From contig JAOZIF010000013.1 in the NCBI GenBank assembly GCA_026014495.1, positions 1 to 59,230 of the forward strand: a DNA stretch of 59,230 nucleotides, read 5' to 3'. Under the pieces are notes generated by a model. It was not told the DNA's origin, searched no databases, and was given only the letters and a program-made list of their open reading frames with translations. The position numbers and the translations under genes are program-made. Below, in pieces: positions 8,113 to 57,886 of this stretch (position 1 is its first letter; each line of letters opens with the position of its first letter). Source of the DNA: Candidatus Bathyarchaeum sp. (GTDB lineage Archaea; Thermoproteota; Bathyarchaeia; Bathyarchaeales; Bathyarchaeaceae).

Positions 8113-9738
8113 TTAGAATTCTGGTTTTGTTTTTCCAAGTTTTTTGTCTAGGCATGCTTTGATGAAGCCGTAGTATTCTGGTTCTGGTTTAGTTGGTCTG
8201 CTTTTGAATTCGCCGTGGAACTGTGAGGCAAAGAAAAAGAAGTTGCTAGGTAATTCTAGAATCTCTTTTCTTCTCGCGTCGGGACTGTTTCCTGAGAAAA
8301 TAATTCCCTGCTCCTCTAAAGCACTCCAGTAGTCTGGATTGACTTCCCATCTGTGGCGGTGTCGCTCAAAAATTGTGTCTACCCCATAGAGCCTGTGTGC
8401 TATTGTGTCTTTGTGTACCCGAACTTCGTGGGCACCTAAACGCATGGTTCCACCTTTGTTGTTAACTGTTTTTTGTTCAGGCATTAAGTCAATCACTGGA
8501 TGAGGCGTATCTGGATTTATTTCGGTGCTGTTGGCTCCAGTGAATCCGCAAACGTTTCGGGCAAATTCAACGACTGCTAATTGGAATCCGTAGCAGACTC
8601 CAAGGAAAGGAATGTTGTTTTCGCGGGCAAACTGGATGCCCTTAATTTTTCCCTCAGTTCCTCTTGGTCCAAACCCGTAGGGAATGAAGATTCCATCATG
8701 CCCCTCAAGAAGCTTTAGTCCATCTGAGTTGTTTTCTAAGCATTCTGCTTCAATGTAATCTACCGTCACTTTTGTTTGACACGCAGCGCCAGAGTGCCTG
8801 AATGCTTCGTTCATGCTCACGTAGCTGTCAGTTAAACCTGCGTATTTGCCGATTAGAGCTATTTTTACTTCGTATTGGGGGTTTTCAAAGCAGTCTACAA
8901 ACTTTTTCCATTCACTCCATTCTGGAGCTTTTTTGGATATGCCTAATCTGTTGCAAACATAGTCGCCCATACCTTGTTTATCCAAGATTAATGGGACTTT
9001 GTAAATTGATGGAACATCATATGAACAGAAAACCGCCTCTTTGGGGATTGTACCAAACAGTGCTACCTTTCTTAGTGTTTCATCATCAATCATGTCCCTG
9101 CATCGGGCTACGATAGTGTCAGGTTGGATACCTATTCTGCGTAACTCGTTTACGCTGTGCTGAAGAGGCTTGGTTTTCATTTCACCTGTGACATCCAAAA
9201 TTGGAATTAGGGCAAGGTGCACGTAGAGTGTGTTATCAAAGCCTTCTTCTAGGCGCATCTGGCGTATAGCTTCCAGAAATGGCAAGCCTTCAATGTCGCC
9301 TACTGTTCCACCAAGTTCGGTTAAGACAGTATCTGCCTTTGATTTCTCGGCGACAGTGCGGATTCGCCGTTTTATTTCGTTAGTTACGTGTGGAACAATC
9401 TGGACGCATCTGCCTAGAAAGTCTCCGCGTCGTTCTCGGTCTATGACGGTTTGGTATATTTGTCCTGTTGTTACGTTGTTGTCTTTTGGCATGTTAGCGT
9501 CAAGAAACCGTTCATAACCGCCTAGGTCAAGGTCGGTTTCGCCTCCATCCTCTGTAACGAATACTTCGCCGTGGATGTAGGGGTTCATGGTTCCTGCGTC
9601 AACGTTCACGTAAGGGTCAACTTTGATGACTGTAACATCAACGCCTCTAACCTGAAGCATTTTGCCTATAGAAGAAGTAACAATTCCCTTACCAACAGAG
9701 GAAAGCACACCACCCGTTACAAAAATATACTTGACCAT
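8113..9738 (-). CDS. pyrG: CTP synthase
   Basis: KYIFVTGGVLSSVGKG, GEVFVTEDGGETDLDLG, glutaminase GVCYGFQ, ERHRHR, QFHGE. Confidence 0.98.
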   Translation of the reverse strand: MVKYIFVTGGVLSSVGKGIVTSSIGKMLQVRGVDVTVIKVDPYVNVDAGTMNPYIHGEVFVTEDGGETDLDLGGYERFLDANMPKDNNVTTGQIYQTVIDRERRGDFLGRCVQIVPHVTNEIKRRIRTVAEKSKADTVLTELGGTVGDIEGLPFLEAIRQMRLEEGFDNTLYVHLALIPILDVTGEMKTKPLQHSVNELRRIGIQPDTIVARCRDMIDDETLRKVALFGTIPKEAVFCSYDVPSIYKVPLILDKQGMGDYVCNRLGISKKAPEWSEWKKFVDCFENPQYEVKIALIGKYAGLTDSYVSMNEAFRHSGAACQTKVTVDYIEAECLENNSDGLKLLEGHDGIFIPYGFGPRGTEGKIKGIQFARENNIPFLGVCYGFQLAVVEFARNVCGFTGANSTEINPDTPHPVIDLMPEQKTVNNKGGTMRLGAHEVRVHKDTIAHRLYGVDTIFERHRHRWEVNPDYWSALEEQGIIFSGNSPDARRKEILELPSNFFFFASQFHGEFKSRPTKPEPEYYGFIKACLDKKLGKTKPEF

Positions 9739-9818: not shown

Positions 9819-10436
9819 CTACGTGTGAGCTGAGTCCAAGTTTGATGTTTTGGTTTGGTTTAACGTATGTAATGCCAGTTCGCCAGCTTTTTTCATGTTT
9901 TTGCCAAGAGAAACAAAACCATGATTTCTAATTACAATTAGCTCCTTGTTGCCCATTACCTTCAGGACTTCTTTTGCTAACTCTATTGTGCCAGATTCGT
10001 ATTCTGTTTCAGTTATGGGCAGACTCATTTTTTCAGCATGGCTTACTATGTTGTCGTTGTGTCCATGAAAAACTGCGTTAATTTCTTTGTTTGCTTTGTA
10101 AAGCAAATGGTGCATTATCGACTCGGAAGATGGTTTCTTTTTGCCTTCAACAAAAAACGTGTTAGCTTTTTCGTCGTAAGCTTTGACATTAACAAAACAG
10201 TTGTCGGCTAAGTTCTCTTTGTTTTTCAGTCCAGACGCTGTTATCACAAAACCATCTTTTAATCTAAAACTCAGGTTGCCCGTGTAGTTTCCTTCAACCA
10301 CTGGAGTTAAACCGTTTTTCTGGAATTTTTCGCTCCATTCTTTTAGTTCCACAATTTTTGCGTCACTGGGAACCTTGTCAGAGACAAAAACGGTGTTGAA
10401 TCTTATTTTTCCTTCTTTCATTTGCTCATTCAGCAC
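9819..10436 (-). CDS. Class II aldolase/adducin family protein
   Basis: GNLSFR, ITASG, PSSESIMH, HGH and RNHG metal-binding histidines. Confidence 0.88.
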   Translation of the reverse strand: MLNEQMKEGKIRFNTVFVSDKVPSDAKIVELKEWSEKFQKNGLTPVVEGNYTGNLSFRLKDGFVITASGLKNKENLADNCFVNVKAYDEKANTFFVEGKKKPSSESIMHHLLYKANKEINAVFHGHNDNIVSHAEKMSLPITETEYESGTIELAKEVLKVMGNKELIVIRNHGFVSLGKNMKKAGELALHTLNQTKTSNLDSAHT

Positions 10437-10498
10437 TTTGTTGGCTTAGGGGTTTTGCAAAGTATAAGACGCCTATATAAACAGAGCAGATTATCGGT

Positions 10499-11563
10499 TT
10501 ATAGCCATTTTTTCTTTCTGAAATAACCTACCATTACTATACCTACGGCAAGCATAACAATGTAAACCATGGGATACCCCCAAGGCGAATCAAGCTCAGG
10601 CATATACTTGAAGTTCATTCCGTAGATGCCCGCGATAAGCGTTAATGGAATAAATATTGTTGCGATAATTGTTAATACTTTCATTACTTCGTTCATTTTG
10701 TTGCTGACGCTTGAAAGATAAATGTCAAGCATGCCCGAAAGCATGTCGCGAAAAGTTTCTAGGGCGTCAATGACCTGAATTGTGTGATCATAAACGTCTC
10801 GTAAGTAAATGTCGATGGACTTGTCGATTAGGGGCGATTCCCATCTTTCCAGTCTACTTATTACTTCCCGTAACGGCCAAACCGATTTGCGGAGATATAT
10901 TAGTTCACGTTTCAAGTTGTGGATTGTATGCAGAACTTCTGGTGTTGCGTTCTTAACAAGTTCATCTTCTATGTCCTCGATTTTTTCTCCAATTTTCTCC
11001 AGAACCATGAAGTAGTGGTCAACGATGGCGTCTATCAGAGAGTATGCAAGGTAGTCTGCCCCCATTTTTCTGGTGCGCCCACGATCAGACCTAATTCGTT
11101 CTCTGATGATATCAAAAACGTCTCCTTCATCCTCCTGAAACGAGACCACATAATTTGAGCCAAGAATCAGACAGACCTGCTCGGTTCTTGTTTCGTTTAC
11201 TTTTTCGTCGTATTGAAGCATTTTTAGGACAATAAACAGGTAATCATTAAAATCCTCCATTTTTGGGCGCTGCCCAGTATGCATGATGTCTTCTAATGCG
11301 AGGGGATGAATTTTGAGGTGTTTGCCGATTTGTTCGACATTATCTAGTTTATGCACCCCGTCTATGTTTATCCATGTTGTAGTTGGTTTATCTTTGAGGG
11401 GAAAACATTTGTCAACTGTGTTTACTTCTGTTTCCTCAAAATTGTTGCTATCATAAGTGATGCATGTAACCTTTACTTGTTCATCCTTTTTTTTACCAAC
11501 ATATACTGGGGTTCCGGGAGGAAGACCAGCTTTCTTTGCTAGCTTCTTGGTAAAACGTGGCGT
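10499..11563 (-). CDS. corA: CorA Mg2+/Co2+ transporter, full length only if initiated at ACG 11563
   Basis: HPLALED, YLRDVYDH, GIYGMNF, MPEL. The frame stays open 69 codons upstream of the track start (PRFTKKLAKKAGLPPGT...TWINIDG), giving 354 aa. No in-frame ATG/GTG/TTG occurs before the upstream TAG. Confidence 0.9.
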   Translation of the reverse strand, partial: TPRFTKKLAKKAGLPPGTPVYVGKKKDEQVKVTCITYDSNNFEETEVNTVDKCFPLKDKPTTTWINIDGVHKLDNVEQIGKHLKIHPLALEDIMHTGQRPKMEDFNDYLFIVLKMLQYDEKVNETRTEQVCLILGSNYVVSFQEDEGDVFDIIRERIRSDRGRTRKMGADYLAYSLIDAIVDHYFMVLEKIGEKIEDIEDELVKNATPEVLHTIHNLKRELIYLRKSVWPLREVISRLERWESPLIDKSIDIYLRDVYDHTIQVIDALETFRDMLSGMLDIYLSSVSNKMNEVMKVLTIIATIFIPLTLIAGIYGMNFKYMPELDSPWGYPMVYIVMLAVGIVMVGYFRKKKWL

Positions 11564-11620
11564 TACAGTGCACCCCCTGAAAGATTTTCGTGTAGACTAT
11601 TTAATACTTCTCAAAGCTGT

Positions 11621-12652
11621 TTATCCACTTCTGTTTGGCTCTAAAATTACCTTAAGCGATTTTCCTGCTTCTGCCACAAGCCTAAACCCTTCTGCCGCTT
11701 CTTTGAGGTCTAGCCTGTGGGTTATCATGTCAAAAACGTTGATGTGCTTTTGTGACAAAACATGCAATGCTTCTTTGAGGTCTTTTGGCGCTGCACCATA
11801 CGACGTTCGTATTGTTGTTTCGTTTCTCCAAAACTGGGTTATGGGTATCGGAATTTTAACTGTGGGGTCTGGAACCGCAAAAAACAGGATTGTTCCTCCA
11901 CGGTCTGCGCAGTCTAGTGCAGTTAATGCTGCTTTGGTTGCACCAGTGCACACAATTACTTTGTCCACTCCGGTTCCATCGTTAAGTTGTTTTAGTTGCT
12001 TAACTAAATCATTGTTAGCATCTATTGTGTGGTCTGCGCCAAATTTTTCTGCCAACTTTAGACGGTCAGCACTGATGTCCGCCGCAAAAATCTTCTGTAC
12101 ACCCTTCATTTTCGATAATTGTATGTGAAGTATTCCAGCCATTCCACTGCCAATTATCAAAACTGTGTCACATTTTTGCATATCCGATAATCTTTGACCC
12201 CTAACTGCACACGCTAACGGTTCAATGAATGTTCCTTCTTCATAGCTCATGTCTGCTGGCAGCTTGTAAACTCCGGATTCAATGTTAATTTTTGGCACAC
12301 GTATATACTGCGAGAAGCCTCCAGGAAAGTAATTTGTTGTGTGCAGGGTTTCGCAGGCTGTGTGCGCATCTTTTTTGCAGTAACAGCACTTGTTGCAGGG
12401 TACATGATGAGAAACAAAAACGCGGTCTCCAACTTCATATTTGGTGACGTTTTCTCCAACTTCATCTATTATTCCTGTTGCTTCATGGCCTAGCACTCGG
12501 GGCGCTTTTGGGAGCCTGTACCATTCTACACCGTCTGTTCCGCAGATTCCGCTAGCCATGACCTTTAGGAGAAATTCGTCGGGTCCAATCTCTGGTTTAG
12601 GGATGTCTTCTATTCGTATGTCCTTGTTGTTGTGGTAGACCGCTACAAGCAT
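11621..12652 (-). CDS. Zn-dependent medium-chain dehydrogenase (sorbitol/threonine dehydrogenase-like)
   Basis: GICGTD, GHE, structural Zn motif CxxCxxC-x7-C, NAD-binding GSGMAG. Confidence 0.93.
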   Translation of the reverse strand: MLVAVYHNNKDIRIEDIPKPEIGPDEFLLKVMASGICGTDGVEWYRLPKAPRVLGHEATGIIDEVGENVTKYEVGDRVFVSHHVPCNKCCYCKKDAHTACETLHTTNYFPGGFSQYIRVPKINIESGVYKLPADMSYEEGTFIEPLACAVRGQRLSDMQKCDTVLIIGSGMAGILHIQLSKMKGVQKIFAADISADRLKLAEKFGADHTIDANNDLVKQLKQLNDGTGVDKVIVCTGATKAALTALDCADRGGTILFFAVPDPTVKIPIPITQFWRNETTIRTSYGAAPKDLKEALHVLSQKHINVFDMITHRLDLKEAAEGFRLVAEAGKSLKVILEPNRSG

Positions 12653-12680
12653 TGCGTCACCAAAAATTAGGGAGAAGGAC

Positions 12681-13478
12681 TTATGCCTTTCCCGATTTTA
12701 CTTCTTCAAAGAGTTGTTGTGCTTCTTTGGCAGTGAGGTTTTCATGGATTATTCCACGTATACCTCGCATAACTGCTACTGGATACTGGTGTTGCCAAAT
12801 GTTTCTGCCAAGGTTAACGCCTATGGCTCCACATTGCATTCCGTCATAAACGAACTCGAATACCTCCAGTGCAGTGTCCACTTTTGGTCCGCCTGCGATT
12901 ACCACAGGAACAGGGCAGCCATCAACAACTTTAGCGAAATCTTCTTCACAGTAATATGTTTTGACTACTCTGGCGCCTAATTCAGCTGCTATTCTAGAGC
13001 ATAATCCTAGGTATCGGGCTGTACGCTTTTCGAGTTCTCTGCCTACTGCAGTTACTGCCATTGTGGGTATACCATAGTCTTCGCATTGGTCAACAAGCCG
13101 TGAAAAACTCTTCAAAGTTTGATGCTCATATTTGCCACCAACATAAATGCTCATGGAAACGGCGCTGGCGTTAAGCCTAAGAATCTCTGTTATAGAAGTC
13201 ATCTGTTCCTCATTTGACAGGTCGTCTCCGACTACGCTGTTGCCTCCAGAAACCCGCAGAATAATCGGCTTTTCAATTGATGGGTCTACACAGTTTCTAA
13301 GCACGCCTCGCGTCATCATTACAGCGTCTGCGTATGGAACAAGCGGTTTTATTGTTTCTCCGGGCTTCTCCAGTTTACGGGTTGGTCCCTGAAAATATCC
13401 ATGGTCAATAGGCAAAAAGAGCGCTTTTCCGTCTTTTTGTATGAGCCTGTTTAATCTGTTTTGGATTCCCCAATCCAT
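12681..13478 (-). CDS. lsrF: LsrF-like 3-hydroxy-5-phosphonooxypentane-2,4-dione thiolase (class I aldolase fold)
   Basis: MDWGIQNRLNRL, IDHGYFQGPT, catalytic Lys in VVKTYY, GCPVPVVIAGG, NLGRNIWQ, all matching recalled E. coli LsrF. ATG 13478 follows GAGGGAGG. Confidence 0.85.
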   Translation of the reverse strand: MDWGIQNRLNRLIQKDGKALFLPIDHGYFQGPTRKLEKPGETIKPLVPYADAVMMTRGVLRNCVDPSIEKPIILRVSGGNSVVGDDLSNEEQMTSITEILRLNASAVSMSIYVGGKYEHQTLKSFSRLVDQCEDYGIPTMAVTAVGRELEKRTARYLGLCSRIAAELGARVVKTYYCEEDFAKVVDGCPVPVVIAGGPKVDTALEVFEFVYDGMQCGAIGVNLGRNIWQHQYPVAVMRGIRGIIHENLTAKEAQQLFEEVKSGKA

Positions 13479-13479
13479 C

Positions 13480-13704
13480 TTATTTTCCTCCCTCATTCTG
13501 TGGTCTTACAATTAAATATCCTTTCTCTATAAGCCAATGATGAAACTGCCACGTAGTATACACACAATCAGTGCTGCATGTCTTCCTGACTTTTTCATAT
13601 TCTTCAGAGCCTGACTCTAGCTTGTTTAGTTCAACCTGCACAGGACAGCTTACGTCATTGCAGAATTCTCGGCGCTTATAATCAACAAAACCTTCTATGC
13701 TCAA
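13480..13704 (-). CDS. Small Cys/His-rich hypothetical protein
   Basis: 74 aa with C-x4-C, C-x3-C and FHHW; stop lies 1 nt before the lsrF ATG. Confidence 0.75.
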   Translation of the reverse strand: MSIEGFVDYKRREFCNDVSCPVQVELNKLESGSEEYEKVRKTCSTDCVYTTWQFHHWLIEKGYLIVRPQNEGGK

Positions 13705-13777
13705 AATTGAAACCTCAGTTGATTCTTCGAGTGTATACTCTAACTTTTAAAATTAACTCGCAACTGAGTTGTCACGT

Positions 13778-13828
13778 CTATTAGGAGACTAATAGAGGTT
13801 CATTGTTGAAAACTAACTTTTTTCTGAA
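13778..13828 (+). repeat. Dispersed intergenic element, copy 1 of 3
   Basis: CTATTAG-GAGA-CTAATAG-AGGTTCATTGTTGAAAACTAAC-TTTTTT-CTGAA; 45 nt identical to copy 3. Confidence 0.9.
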
Positions 13829-13953
13829 AAACAAAGCAAGACAACAAACATGGCAGTTAACTGCTTAGTCAAAAACCTGAAGGTCACAGTTTAATAATTG
13901 AAAACACATCTGATTCACGTGACTTGCAATATTTCGTTGTGAAGTGAAGCACC

Positions 13954-56866: not shown

Positions 56867-57886
56867 TTAATCCTTTCTTTTTTTCTTCAAACTAACCTCG
56901 GGAACAAGTATTCCTTCTTCTGTTATAACCGCATCTACATACTCTAAAGGCGTTATGTCAAACGCTGGATTTAGCACTTTGATTCCTTCAGGTGCTATTC
57001 TTTCACAGCCTATGTTTGTTACTTCTTGGGGGCTTCTTTCTTCGATAACTGCATCCTCAGAAGAACGAGATTGATCCATTGTTGACATAGGCGCAGCTAC
57101 ATAGAATGGGATTCCGTGCTCAAATGCCAAAACAGCAACATTGTATGTTCCAATCTTGTTCAAAACTGCGTCCCTGACAATTCGGTCGGCGCCAACAACA
57201 ACTTTGTCTACCATTCCTCTTGACATAACATAGCCTACCATAGTGTCGCTAATCAAAGTCACAGGAATATTATCGCGCATCAACTCATAGCAAGTGAGCT
57301 TTGCACCTTGAAGGCGCGGTCGGGTTTCACAGGAGATAACCTTAACGTTTTTGCCCTCTTCGATGGCGCCTCGTATAACTCCAAGCGCAGTTCCATAATC
57401 AACCGTAGCCAAGCTGCCTGCATTACAGTGGGTAAGAACCACATCACCATCCTCTATGAGTGTAGCACCGTGCTTGCCCATTTTCCTGTTAACTTCAACA
57501 TCTTCATCTGCCATCCTCTGCGCTTCAGCTACAACAGCTGCAGCCAAAGCCTCTTTTGTTCCCTTTGTTTCGTTAGCCTTCTTCATTACCCTGTCAATTG
57601 CCCAGAACAGATTCACGGCAGTTGGACGCGTCTTGCGTAACACCACAGCCGATTCTTCAAGCTCCTTTAGTAGCTCCTCTCTAGTTTTAGCCTTTGAATG
57701 AAAAGCACATAACGCCAGACCATACGCAGCCGCGACCCCAATAAGAGGTGCACCACGTAGTTTCATTTCTTTAATCGCAGACGCCATTGTCTTATAATCT
57801 GCTATTTTTACCCAGACAACTTCGTTGGGTAATTTTGTTTGGTCAACAAGAATTACTGTGCCGTCTTTCCATTCTATTGTTCGCAT
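56867..57886 (-). CDS. mtnA: S-methyl-5-thioribose-1-phosphate isomerase
   Basis: DQTKLP, LRGAPLIG, TRPTAVNL, LTHCNAGSLAT, ETRPRLQG, NKIGTY, NPAFDITP. Confidence 0.93.
   Translation of the reverse strand: MRTIEWKDGTVILVDQTKLPNEVVWVKIADYKTMASAIKEMKLRGAPLIGVAAAYGLALCAFHSKAKTREELLKELEESAVVLRKTRPTAVNLFWAIDRVMKKANETKGTKEALAAAVVAEAQRMADEDVEVNRKMGKHGATLIEDGDVVLTHCNAGSLATVDYGTALGVIRGAIEEGKNVKVISCETRPRLQGAKLTCYELMRDNIPVTLISDTMVGYVMSRGMVDKVVVGADRIVRDAVLNKIGTYNVAVLAFEHGIPFYVAAPMSTMDQSRSSEDAVIEERSPQEVTNIGCERIAPEGIKVLNPAFDITPLEYVDAVITEEGILVPEVSLKKKRKD

What the first reader, a model, noticed from the sequence alone, without database searches (positions are those of the whole stretch)
9819..13704. LsrF thiolase + Zn-dehydrogenase + class II aldolase: candidate undescribed 5-deoxypentulose-phosphate pathway to acetyl-CoA
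Seen: co-oriented run of Cys-rich mini-protein, lsrF, Zn-dehydrogenase, corA and class II aldolase, with no lsrK, lsrG or luxS in the window; mtnA is at 56867. Established: E. coli LsrF converts P-HPD (CH3-CO-CHOH-CO-CH2OP) + CoA to DHAP + acetyl-CoA; MtnA-family isomerases convert 5-deoxyribose-1-P to 5-deoxyribulose-1-P; class II aldolases (DrdA/Ald2) cleave that to DHAP + acetaldehyde. Inference: NAD-dependent oxidation at C4 of 5-deoxyribulose-1-P gives exactly P-HPD, so the dehydrogenase plus LsrF could salvage 5'-deoxyadenosine (radical-SAM waste) or methylthioribulose-1-P as DHAP + an acyl-CoA, independent of AI-2 signalling. This is a hypothesis, not a demonstrated activity.
Basis: inference. 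Interest (0 to 1): 0.8.

Follow-up and report, generated by a model that had tools for sequence, protein, structure and literature searches.

The report
Orphan LsrF-dehydrogenase cassette in Bathyarchaeia
An uncultured Bathyarchaeon carries a tightly coupled three-gene cassette (a small cysteine protein, a relative of the "quorum-sensing" enzyme LsrF, and a zinc dehydrogenase). The genome has no quorum-sensing genes, the cassette recurs across many anaerobic phyla, and it most likely turns a deoxy-sugar phosphate left over from S-adenosylmethionine chemistry into DHAP and acetyl-CoA by a route I found in no paper.

Summary
The genes are real and lie where stated. It is mini-protein + LsrF + Zn-dehydrogenase.

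- CorA and the class II aldolase belong to a pyrG-aldolase-corA backbone. That backbone persists in sister genomes that lack the cassette.
- The LsrF-dehydrogenase pair is adjacent in 15 of 20 diverse Bathyarchaeia loci. The dehydrogenase lies within 1.6 kb of LsrF in 56 of 66 informative loci from about ten bacterial and archaeal phyla.
- LuxS, LsrK, LsrG, LsrR and LsrB were not found in this 93%-complete genome or beside any of the 80 loci.
- MTAP and MtnA are present. MtnA is universal in the class, so its presence carries no co-occurrence signal.
- In other phyla MtnA sits directly beside the cassette in three loci. Class II aldolases are the most enriched neighbours.
- In Chloroflexi the Zn-dehydrogenase is replaced by an aldolase/SDR fusion.
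- Cassette LsrFs keep the Schiff-base lysine and the phosphate site, but carry Asn where E. coli LsrF has Asp251.

The 5-deoxyribulose-1-P to P-HPD to DHAP + acetyl-CoA idea is chemically sound and is the best fit (about 0.45), but the substrate is unproven. A DKFP role is disfavoured. This scan has flagged the same cassette at least six times in other genomes. I found no paper on it.

The parts
13480..13704 (-). Cassette gene 1: 74-aa helical protein with invariant Cys15, Cys20, Cys43, Cys47 and His55. Family unknown; probably binds a metal.
   Evidence: No Pfam or NCBIfam hit. It is 56-70% identical between archaeal and bacterial copies, and every copy found lies upstream of LsrF, co-oriented (immediately upstream in most). 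The model is a four-helix bundle with pLDDT 82. No PDB fold match. The Atlas cluster holds about 1900 hypothetical proteins. A GAGGT motif lies 8 nt before the TTG start.
12681..13478 (-). Cassette gene 2: LsrF-type DhnA-family class I (Schiff-base) enzyme, a putative CoA-dependent thiolase. The ORF is open from 13496, but the likely start is 13478.
   Evidence: NF006081 scores 362 bits against a cut-off of 297. E. coli LsrF structures 3GKF and 4P2V match at E = 1e-77, with 47% identity. Conserved: Lys203, Asp57-His58, and Gly253-Arg254 of the phosphate site. Asp251 is replaced by Asn.
11621..12652 (-). Cassette gene 3: NAD-type zinc MDR dehydrogenase of the polyol / threonine-dehydrogenase branch.
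   Evidence: PF08240 + PF00107. The best NCBIfam family is Tdh, at 189 bits against a cut-off of 380. The nearest structures are sorbitol dehydrogenases and archaeal Tdh. The sequence shows Cys37, His56, Glu57 and Glu144, the structural-zinc Cys86/89/92/100, GSGMAG, and Asp192. It starts 28 nt after the LsrF stop. It is adjacent to LsrF in 15 of 20 Bathyarchaeia loci and 46 of 66 informative cross-phylum loci.
10499..11575 (-). CorA Mg/Co transporter. A backbone neighbour, not a cassette member.
   Evidence: TIGR00383, 338 bits. It is present or absent between the dehydrogenase and the aldolase within the genus. It stays with pyrG-aldolase in genomes where the cassette is missing or elsewhere. 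The N-terminal 69 codons are open but have no ATG, GTG or TTG.
9819..10436 (-). Divergent class II (FucA/MtnB/Ald2-fold) aldolase-family protein, the only PF00596 gene in the assembly. A backbone neighbour and a possible DHAP-shunt aldolase.
   Evidence: PF00596, 78 bits. The best NCBIfam family is MtnB, at 56 bits against a cut-off of 137. Glu105, His124, His126 and His172 align with FucA Glu73, His92, His94 and His155. It is the only copy in the genome. Orthologues occur in 7 of 7 genomes of the genus, including the two without the cassette.
56867..57886 (-). MtnA (5-methylthioribose-1-P isomerase), the presumed supplier of the ketose-1-phosphate. It is 43 kb away and not linked to the cassette.
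   Evidence: TIGR00512, 404 bits against a cut-off of 279. Present in 152 of 152 high-quality Bathyarchaeia.

Best explanation
The functional unit is a three-gene, translationally coupled cassette: Cys4 mini-protein, LsrF-type enzyme and NAD-dependent Zn dehydrogenase. I propose it is an oxidative, thiolytic alternative to the aldolase step of the DHAP shunt.

Proposed route:
1. MTAP and MtnA, both present in this genome, convert 5'-deoxyadenosine (and perhaps methylthioadenosine) to 5-deoxy- or 5-methylthio-ribulose-1-phosphate. This promiscuity is established for these enzymes in other organisms.
2. The dehydrogenase oxidises the C4 hydroxyl next to the methyl group. The product is 3-hydroxy-2,4-pentanedione-5-phosphate (P-HPD). 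This step is inferred.
3. The LsrF homologue forms a Schiff base at the carbonyl next to CH2OP through its conserved lysine and passes the acetyl group to CoA. The products are DHAP + acetyl-CoA (or methylthioacetyl-CoA). This step is inferred from E. coli LsrF.

The net result is NADH plus an energy-rich thioester and no free aldehyde, which would suit a fermentative anaerobe. The mini-protein's role is unknown; I guess a metal-binding accessory subunit. The neighbouring class II aldolase is a separate backbone gene. It may cleave the same kind of ketose-1-phosphate as a classical DHAP-shunt aldolase.
For: Shown by tool results:
- LsrF equivalog score is above the cut-off, and the catalytic Lys and phosphate site are conserved.
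- The dehydrogenase lies within 1.6 kb of LsrF in 56 of 66 informative loci from about ten phyla (46 directly adjacent and co-oriented). The median gap for the adjacent pairs is 17 nt. The pair is adjacent in 15 of 20 Bathyarchaeia loci from many families.
- No LuxS, FGGY kinase or ABM protein was found in the 93%-complete genome. E. coli LsrK, R, B, C, D and G give no hit in it. None of these six has a counterpart beside the 80 loci, apart from generic sugar-ABC permease matches to LsrC/LsrD in two of them.
- MTAP (393 bits against 382) and MtnA are present.
- MtnA is directly upstream of and co-oriented with the cassette in L112 and L118, and three genes upstream in L098. In L098 and L112 it comes with a class II aldolase and an aldehyde dehydrogenase, which is a DHAP-shunt set.
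- PF00596 aldolases are the most enriched neighbours: 8 of 264 near genes, and not among the listed families in 145 far genes. Five Chloroflexi loci instead have LsrF followed by an aldolase/SDR fusion, so a dehydrogenase partner recurs by a second route.
- 4 of 5 complete cassette-bearing bacterial genomes have a true MtnA.

From established knowledge:
- E. coli LsrF cleaves P-HPD with CoA to DHAP + acetyl-CoA (Marques et al. 2014, cited in PMC11442133).
- M. jannaschii MtnA accepts 5-deoxyribose-1-P, and organisms with only mtnP + mtnA are said to need another 5'-deoxyadenosine route (PMC8102628).
- The Tdh/Kbl pair is a precedent for oxidising CH3-CHOH and then cleaving with CoA.
Against: - No result identifies the substrate. 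The link to MtnA rests on 3 of 80 loci, two of them related Omnitrophota.
- MtnA is universal in Bathyarchaeia, while the cassette is in only 93 of 301 genomes. There is therefore no co-occurrence signal.
- Radical-SAM genes are not clearly enriched nearby: 7 of 264 near genes against 2 of 145 far genes.
- The genome-level anticorrelation with class II aldolases (odds ratio 0.19) disappears when counted by genus (odds ratio about 1; and the tallies).
- Cassette LsrFs carry Asn at E. coli Asp251 in 81 of 89 sequences. Diaz et al. proposed that residue as catalytic (PMC2728841). The chemistry may therefore differ.
- The pathway as stated does not explain the conserved mini-protein.
Confidence: 0.45

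Rival explanations
1. Same two-step logic, different substrate. The dehydrogenase oxidises some other ketose or deoxyketose phosphate, for example L-fuculose- or L-rhamnulose-1-P, ribulose- or xylulose-1-P, or in bacteria 1-deoxyxylulose-5-P. The LsrF homologue then releases DHAP plus the matching acyl-CoA (lactyl-, glycolyl- or acetyl-CoA).
For: The enriched neighbours are DHAP-dependent aldolases of three kinds: PF00596, the PF00596-SDR fusion annotated as RhaD-type, and PF01116-like. All of these act on ketose-1-phosphates in general. The dehydrogenase is closest to sugar-alcohol dehydrogenases. Asn251 may signal a changed substrate. The cassette is patchy (93 of 301 genomes), as expected for a facultative catabolic trait.
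Against: At 47% identity to E. coli LsrF, with most of the active site conserved, an acetyl-sized group is favoured. No sugar kinase or sugar transporter recurs next to the cassette. This genome has no FGGY kinase. Archaea lack the DXP pathway.
Confidence: 0.25
2. A DHAP-catalysed aldehyde-to-acyl-CoA cycle. A class II aldolase condenses acetaldehyde (or another aldehyde) with DHAP. The dehydrogenase oxidises the adduct. LsrF regenerates DHAP and releases acetyl-CoA. The net effect is that of an acylating aldehyde dehydrogenase, and it could run in reverse.
For: DHAP-dependent aldolases recur beside the cassette in several phyla and are fused to a dehydrogenase in Chloroflexi. In this genus the only class II aldolase usually lies next to the cassette.
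Against: Most cassettes have no aldolase nearby. 71 of 93 cassette-bearing Bathyarchaeia have no PF00596 gene at all. The aldolase persists without the cassette in G005 and G016. One enzyme normally does this reaction.
Confidence: 0.07
3. The cassette makes or recycles 6-deoxy-5-ketofructose-1-phosphate (DKFP) or its by-product for the archaeal ADH-synthase / dehydroquinate-synthase-II route to aromatic amino acids.
For: This genome has an asd-ADH synthase-DHQS II operon on contig C52. LsrF belongs to the same DhnA family as ADH synthase and the M. jannaschii DKFP enzyme. In M. jannaschii, 5-deoxyribulose-1-P is reported to feed lactaldehyde and methylglyoxal (PMC8102628).
Against: None of 5 complete cassette-bearing bacterial genomes has DHQS II. 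The cassette LsrF scores below the ADH-synthase cut-offs (184 against 299), while the C52 paralogue passes them. The cassette is in only a third of Bathyarchaeia.
Confidence: 0.05
4. Classical role: breakdown of phosphorylated autoinducer-2, taken up or formed abiotically, as in the E. coli lsr system.
For: The NCBIfam equivalog match to LsrF. Homologues in archaea have been read this way in print (PMC11442133).
Against: LuxS, LsrK (any FGGY kinase), LsrG (any ABM protein), LsrR and LsrB were not found in the genome. None sits beside any of the 80 loci. Without a kinase there is no route to phospho-AI-2.
Confidence: 0.03

Closest known systems
LsrF of the E. coli / Salmonella lsr operon (3-hydroxy-2,4-pentanedione-5-phosphate thiolase; PDB 3GKF, 3GLC, 4P2V)
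   Same: Same family, with the NF006081 score above its cut-off and 47% identity. Shared features: DhnA-type TIM barrel, Schiff-base Lys203, Asp57-His58, and Gly253-Arg254 of the phosphate site.
   Different: No lsrK, lsrG, lsrR, lsrACDB or luxS. The partner is a Zn dehydrogenase and a Cys4 mini-protein rather than the LsrG isomerase. Asp251 is Asn in 81 of 89 cassette sequences. Thiolase activity has not been tested.
DHAP shunt / 5-deoxyribose salvage (MtnP or MtnK/DrdK, MtnA/DrdI, Ald2/DrdA; R. rubrum, E. coli ExPEC, B. thuringiensis)
   Same: Same proposed input (5'-deoxyadenosine or MTA via MTAP + MtnA) and same product, DHAP. MtnA, a class II aldolase and an aldehyde dehydrogenase sit beside the cassette in Omnitrophota loci L098 and L112.
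   Different: The aldol cleavage to a free aldehyde would be replaced by NAD-dependent oxidation plus CoA-dependent cleavage to an acyl-CoA. This branch is not described in the papers I could search.
Threonine dehydrogenase (Tdh) + 2-amino-3-ketobutyrate CoA ligase (Kbl)
   Same: The dehydrogenase's best NCBIfam and several best PDB matches are Tdh. The logic is the same: oxidise CH3-CHOH-R to a methyl ketone, then cleave with CoA to acetyl-CoA.
   Different: It scores far below the Tdh cut-off (189 against 380). The cleaving enzyme is a Schiff-base TIM barrel, not a PLP enzyme. The substrate is presumed to be a sugar phosphate.
Bifunctional class II aldolase / short-chain dehydrogenase (RhaD-ADH type, TIGR02632 / PRK08324)
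   Same: It follows LsrF in five Chloroflexi loci, including Oscillochloris trichoides DG6, in the position the Zn dehydrogenase holds elsewhere.
   Different: It is an SDR rather than an MDR dehydrogenase, and it is fused to an aldolase-fold domain. It is not present in this window.

Membership tests
LsrF (NF006081, 3-hydroxy-5-phosphonooxypentane-2,4-dione thiolase) | Profile score above the curated equivalog cut-off | tested here: met
   362 bits against 297; 363 bits in the six-frame search.
LsrF (NF006081, 3-hydroxy-5-phosphonooxypentane-2,4-dione thiolase) | Schiff-base lysine (E. coli Lys203) and phosphate site (His58, Gly253, Arg254) | tested here: met
   VVKTYY, IDHGYF and GRN align with E. 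coli. The residues are named in PMC2728841. They are conserved across the 89 cassette LsrFs.
LsrF (NF006081, 3-hydroxy-5-phosphonooxypentane-2,4-dione thiolase) | Asp251 beside the catalytic lysine (specific to LsrF when compared with FBP aldolase and ADH synthase) | tested here: not met
   GVNLGRN here against GVDMGRN in E. coli. Asn occurs in 81 of 89 cassette sequences, Asp in 4.
LsrF (NF006081, 3-hydroxy-5-phosphonooxypentane-2,4-dione thiolase) | Lies in an lsr system with LsrK kinase, LsrG isomerase and the LsrACDB importer | tested here: not met
   No FGGY, ABM or LuxS family match in the genome. E. coli LsrK, R, B, C, D and G give no tblastn hit in it, and none has a counterpart in the 80 loci apart from generic sugar-ABC permease matches to LsrC/LsrD in two of them.
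LsrF (NF006081, 3-hydroxy-5-phosphonooxypentane-2,4-dione thiolase) | CoA-dependent transfer of acetyl from P-HPD, giving DHAP + acetyl-CoA | not testable with these tools
   Needs an enzyme assay.
DHAP shunt / 5-deoxyribose salvage | Nucleoside phosphorylase (MtnP) or nucleosidase + kinase, plus MtnA isomerase | tested here: met
   MTAP NF006334, 393 bits against 382, on contig C100. MtnA TIGR00512, 404 bits against 279.
DHAP shunt / 5-deoxyribose salvage | Dedicated class II aldolase (Ald2 / DrdA) that cleaves the ketose-1-P to DHAP + aldehyde | tested here: inconclusive
   There is a single PF00596 gene with the metal ligands and catalytic Glu intact. It scores below every NCBIfam cut-off. 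Its nearest structures are the Aquifex MtnB-like protein 2IRP, FucA, and 6BTD (E = 1.6e-7, deposited as a fuculose phosphate aldolase; that it is B. thuringiensis DrdA is from my recollection).
L-threonine 3-dehydrogenase (TIGR00692 / NF003808) | Profile score above the equivalog cut-off | tested here: not met
   189 against 380 and 182 against 458 bits.
Zn-dependent MDR polyol dehydrogenases | Catalytic Zn ligands, structural Zn Cys4, Rossmann GxGxxG with an acidic residue for NAD | tested here: met
   Cys37, His56, Glu57, Glu144; Cys86/89/92/100; GSGMAG; Asp192. Read from the translation. PF08240 + PF00107.
MtnB (methylthioribulose-1-P dehydratase, TIGR03328) | Profile score above the equivalog cut-off | tested here: not met
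   56 bits against 137.
ADH synthase (TIGR01949) | Profile score above the cut-off, and linkage to DHQS II | tested here: not met
   The cassette LsrF scores 184 against 299. The paralogue on C52 scores 354 and lies between asd and DHQS II.

The most novel reading that the evidence does not exclude
A widespread three-gene cassette (Cys4 mini-protein, LsrF-type thiolase, NAD Zn-dehydrogenase), probably spread by gene transfer, is an undescribed aldehyde-free and energy-conserving end of 5'-deoxyadenosine / methylthioadenosine salvage in anaerobic bacteria and archaea. It would yield DHAP + acyl-CoA + NADH. On this reading the enterobacterial AI-2 enzyme LsrF is a late recruit from that older housekeeping pathway.
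Probability: 0.4. Interest if true: 0.8.

Novelty: new variant of a known kind. Interest (0 to 1): 0.65.

Why it matters
How anaerobes that have only MtnP and MtnA dispose of 5'-deoxyadenosine is an acknowledged open point (PMC8102628). 5'-Deoxyadenosine is the inhibitory by-product of every radical-SAM reaction.

If the proposal holds, it would do four things:
- Give those organisms a route that avoids toxic aldehydes and captures a thioester.
- Assign a function to thousands of genes now auto-annotated as AI-2 / quorum-sensing enzymes in organisms with no AI-2 system. That annotation has already been taken at face value in print (PMC11442133).
- Define a new small metal-protein family.
- Suggest where the enterobacterial AI-2 enzyme came from.

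The test is simple: three or four soluble proteins and an LC-MS assay.

Tried and rejected
- **Complex prediction** of mini-protein with LsrF and the dehydrogenase. No verdict, so it counts neither way.
- **Fold search** of the mini-protein model against the PDB. Nothing at E <= 0.001.
- **MtnA against the cassette in 301 Bathyarchaeia**. Uninformative, because MtnA is universal.
- **Complementary distribution of cassette and PF00596 aldolase.** The genome-level odds ratio is 0.19. When I collapsed to genera from the tables I got 16 both, 15 cassette only, 38 aldolase only and 38 neither. I do not use this as evidence.
- **Radical-SAM enrichment near the cassette.** 7 of 264 near genes against 2 of 145 far genes. 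Too weak to use.
- **"Second MtnA paralogue" on C150.** It is 83% identical and sits on a 1.65-kb contig. This is probably strain heterogeneity in the MAG, not a paralogue.
- **DKFP hypothesis.** Disfavoured, since 0 of 5 cassette-bearing bacterial genomes have DHQS II.
- **Treating corA and the aldolase as operon members.** Rejected.
- **Literature searches** joining LsrF with 5-deoxyribose, Bathyarchaeota, methylthioribose, DHAP shunt or radical SAM. No paper links them. The Marques 2014 paper itself is not in the library.

Full report
**What is there.**
The window comes from a Bathyarchaeia MAG of 2.19 Mb in 196 contigs, 93% complete. The closest LsrF homologues are named Bathyarchaeota or Bathyarchaeia. 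On the minus strand lie the following genes:

| Coordinates | Product | Evidence |
|---|---|---|
| 13480-13704 | 74-aa protein with 4 Cys | no Pfam or NCBIfam family |
| 12681-13496 | LsrF-type protein | NF006081, 362 bits against a cut-off of 297 |
| 11621-12652 | Zn-MDR dehydrogenase | best family Tdh, 189 bits against 380 |
| 10499-11356 | CorA | TIGR00383, 338 bits |
| 9819-10436 | class II aldolase fold | PF00596; best NCBIfam family MtnB, 56 bits against 137 |
| 8113-9738 | pyrG | NF003792 (CTP synthase), 770 bits against 308 |

- The mini-protein's stop codon is 1 nt before the ATG at 13478, which follows a GAGGGAGG motif. Most homologues begin MDWG, so LsrF probably starts there.
- The dehydrogenase starts 28 nt after the LsrF stop.
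- The dehydrogenase carries the catalytic zinc ligands, the structural Cys4 site, and an Asp at the end of the second Rossmann strand, as NAD-dependent polyol and threonine dehydrogenases do. Its nearest structures are sorbitol dehydrogenases and archaeal Tdh.
- The aldolase-fold protein keeps the FucA Glu and three His ligands.

**What the conserved unit is.**
- In 20 relatives, mini-LsrF-dehydrogenase is always intact. CorA is present or absent between the dehydrogenase and the aldolase.
- LsrF occurs in 93 of 301 sampled Bathyarchaeia, in 31 of 107 genera.
- In 20 loci chosen across families, the dehydrogenase is next to LsrF in 15. Nothing else is conserved; the other neighbours include nitroreductase, topoisomerase VI, DHDPS and ABC transporters.
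- The aldolase orthologue is confined to this genus plus one other genome. It occurs in the two genus members that lack LsrF and the dehydrogenase.
- pyrG-aldolase-corA stand together without the cassette in G005 and, in G013, apart from it.

**Beyond the class.**
A scan of one genome per species returned 80 loci with LsrFs 62-92% identical to the query. They come from Dehalococcoidia and other Chloroflexota, Desulfobacterota, Omnitrophota, Nitrospirota, Planctomycetota (Brocadiaceae, Scalindua), Latescibacterota, Actinomycetota, Thermoplasmata and Thermococci. LsrF was called in 72 of them, and 6 of those are cut too short to judge, leaving 66 informative loci:

| Arrangement | Loci |
|---|---|
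| LsrF then dehydrogenase, adjacent and co-oriented (median gap for all 46 adjacent pairs, 17 nt) | 44 |
| Reverse order | 2 |
| Dehydrogenase within 1.6 kb | 10 |
| Bifunctional class-II-aldolase/SDR instead | 3 (plus 2 where my ORF caller missed LsrF) |
| No dehydrogenase nearby | 7 |
| Truncated | 6 |

- The mini-protein precedes LsrF in 8 loci from five bacterial phyla and Bathyarchaeia. It shows 56-70% identity and has invariant Cys15, Cys20, Cys43, Cys47 and His55.
- Its model is a small four-helix bundle with no PDB fold match and no named family.

**Is it the AI-2 system?**
No. The assembly has no LuxS, no FGGY kinase and no ABM-family protein. E. coli K-12 LsrK, R, B, C, D and G find nothing in it. 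None of them has a counterpart beside the 80 loci, apart from generic sugar-ABC permease matches to LsrC/LsrD in two loci. LsrA matches only generic ABC ATPases.

**Is it a true LsrF?**
- It is 47% identical to E. coli LsrF.
- It keeps Lys203, Asp57-His58, and Gly253-Arg254 of the phosphate site.
- Asp251 lies 2.9 Å from the lysine. Diaz et al. singled it out as the LsrF-specific candidate catalytic residue (PMC2728841). It is Asn here and in 81 of 89 cassette sequences.

I file it in the LsrF family with one defining feature not met. Its thiolase chemistry is inferred, not shown.

**What feeds it?**
- MTAP (393 bits against 382) and MtnA are present.
- MtnA is in 152 of 152 high-quality Bathyarchaeia. 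Its presence, and the copy 43 kb away in the window, say nothing specific.
- In other phyla MtnA lies directly beside the cassette. Examples are Omnitrophota L112 (MtnA-aldolase-LsrF-DH-aldehyde DH), L098 (aminotransferase-MtnA-ORF-aldolase-aldehyde DH-LsrF-DH, with a B12/radical-SAM gene further upstream on the same contig) and Chloroflexota L118 (MtnA-mini-LsrF).
- I tallied Pfam families over the two genes on each side of the cassette (264 genes) and over a random sample of 145 genes lying at least six genes from the cassette:

| Family | Near (264 genes) | Far (145 genes) |
|---|---|---|
| PF00596 class II aldolase | 8 | not among the listed families |
| PF01116-like aldolase | 3 | not among the listed families |
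| IF-2B / MtnA | 2 | not among the listed families |
| Radical SAM | 7 | 2 |

  The radical-SAM difference is not convincing.
- 4 of 5 complete cassette-bearing bacterial genomes have a true MtnA.

The neighbourhood therefore points to DHAP-yielding ketose-1-phosphate metabolism. MtnA is the only recurring supplier.

**Mechanism.**
Oxidising C4 of 5-deoxyribulose-1-P (CH3-CHOH-CHOH-CO-CH2OP) gives CH3-CO-CHOH-CO-CH2OP. That is the constitution of P-HPD, the E. coli LsrF substrate. Thiolysis then gives DHAP + acetyl-CoA. The Tdh/Kbl pair is a direct precedent for "oxidise CH3-CHOH, then cleave with CoA". It is established elsewhere that MtnA accepts 5-deoxyribose-1-P in an archaeon, and that organisms with only mtnP + mtnA need another 5'-deoxyadenosine route (PMC8102628; PMC6079011). 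I give this reading 0.45. The same logic on another ketose phosphate gets 0.25.

**Tests that weakened or failed to help.**
- The cassette and PF00596 are anticorrelated genome by genome: 22 have both, 71 only the cassette, 130 only the aldolase, 78 neither (odds ratio 0.19).
- A few species-rich genera drive that result. By genus the counts are 16, 15, 38 and 38, which shows no association. I do not count it as evidence.
- The DKFP idea was prompted by the asd-ADH synthase-DHQS II operon on C52 and by the M. jannaschii literature. It is disfavoured, because 0 of 5 cassette-bearing bacterial genomes have DHQS II.

**Novelty.**
No paper in the searchable library joins LsrF with 5-deoxyribose, MTA, the DHAP shunt or Bathyarchaeota. 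One paper reads archaeal LsrF homologues as quorum-sensing genes. Earlier notes of this scan describe the same LsrF + Zn-dehydrogenase cassette in at least six other genomes with the same hypothesis. I treated those as leads and re-derived the context myself.

- the cassette boundary, with mini-protein in and corA and aldolase out;
- the Asp251-to-Asn difference;
- the control-backed enrichment of class II aldolases;
- the universality of MtnA in the class;
- the failure of the complementarity signal at genus level;
- the negative DHQS II test.

Noticed in passing
window 11357-11575 (minus strand): The CorA reading frame is open for 69 codons upstream of the GTG at 11356. It encodes a typical CorA N-terminus (KKAGLPPGTPVYVGKKK) but holds no ATG, GTG or TTG. 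An ACG follows a GGGGGTG motif by 7 nt. This could be a non-canonical start, a sequencing error or a truncated gene.
   Followed up: partly
G000 contig C52 (L002:445-3364): An asd - ADH synthase (TIGR01949, 354 bits) - 3-dehydroquinate synthase II operon. This archaeon uses the DKFP-dependent route to aromatic amino acids, and the source of its DKFP is unknown.
   Followed up: partly
G000 contig C150:270-1250: A second MtnA gene, 83% identical to the window's copy, sits on a 1.65-kb contig. It is probably strain heterogeneity or contamination in the MAG rather than a paralogue.
   Followed up: yes
L086, L100, L107, L115, L124 (Oscillochloris trichoides DG6, GL501404.1): In Chloroflexi, LsrF is followed by a 656-693-aa bifunctional class-II-aldolase/SDR protein (PRK08324 type) instead of the Zn dehydrogenase. 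O. trichoides DG6 is a named isolate, the only one among the 80 loci, and could be used for experiments.
   Followed up: partly
L069:9964-11283, L092, L094, L117 (Desulfobacteraceae): The cassette is followed by a divergent protein of about 430 aa that resembles class II fructose/tagatose-bisphosphate aldolases (PF01116, weak NCBIfam scores). This is a third kind of DHAP-dependent aldolase linked to the cassette.
   Followed up: no
L118:1573-4137 (Chloroflexota): A ribose-type sugar ABC importer (35% identical to LsrA, 30% to LsrC) lies about 2 kb upstream of MtnA-mini-LsrF, on the opposite strand. It may import 5-deoxyribose or methylthioribose.
   Followed up: no
window 13705-13953: The 250-nt divergent intergenic region between the mini-protein gene and trxB holds a TTTAAAA box about 45 nt before the mini-protein's TTG start.
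   Followed up: no
L032-L034 (Bathyarchaeia family f24): Here LsrF and the dehydrogenase are divergently transcribed. A 591-aa amidohydrolase precedes them, and two conserved small proteins of unknown family follow the dehydrogenase.
   Followed up: no
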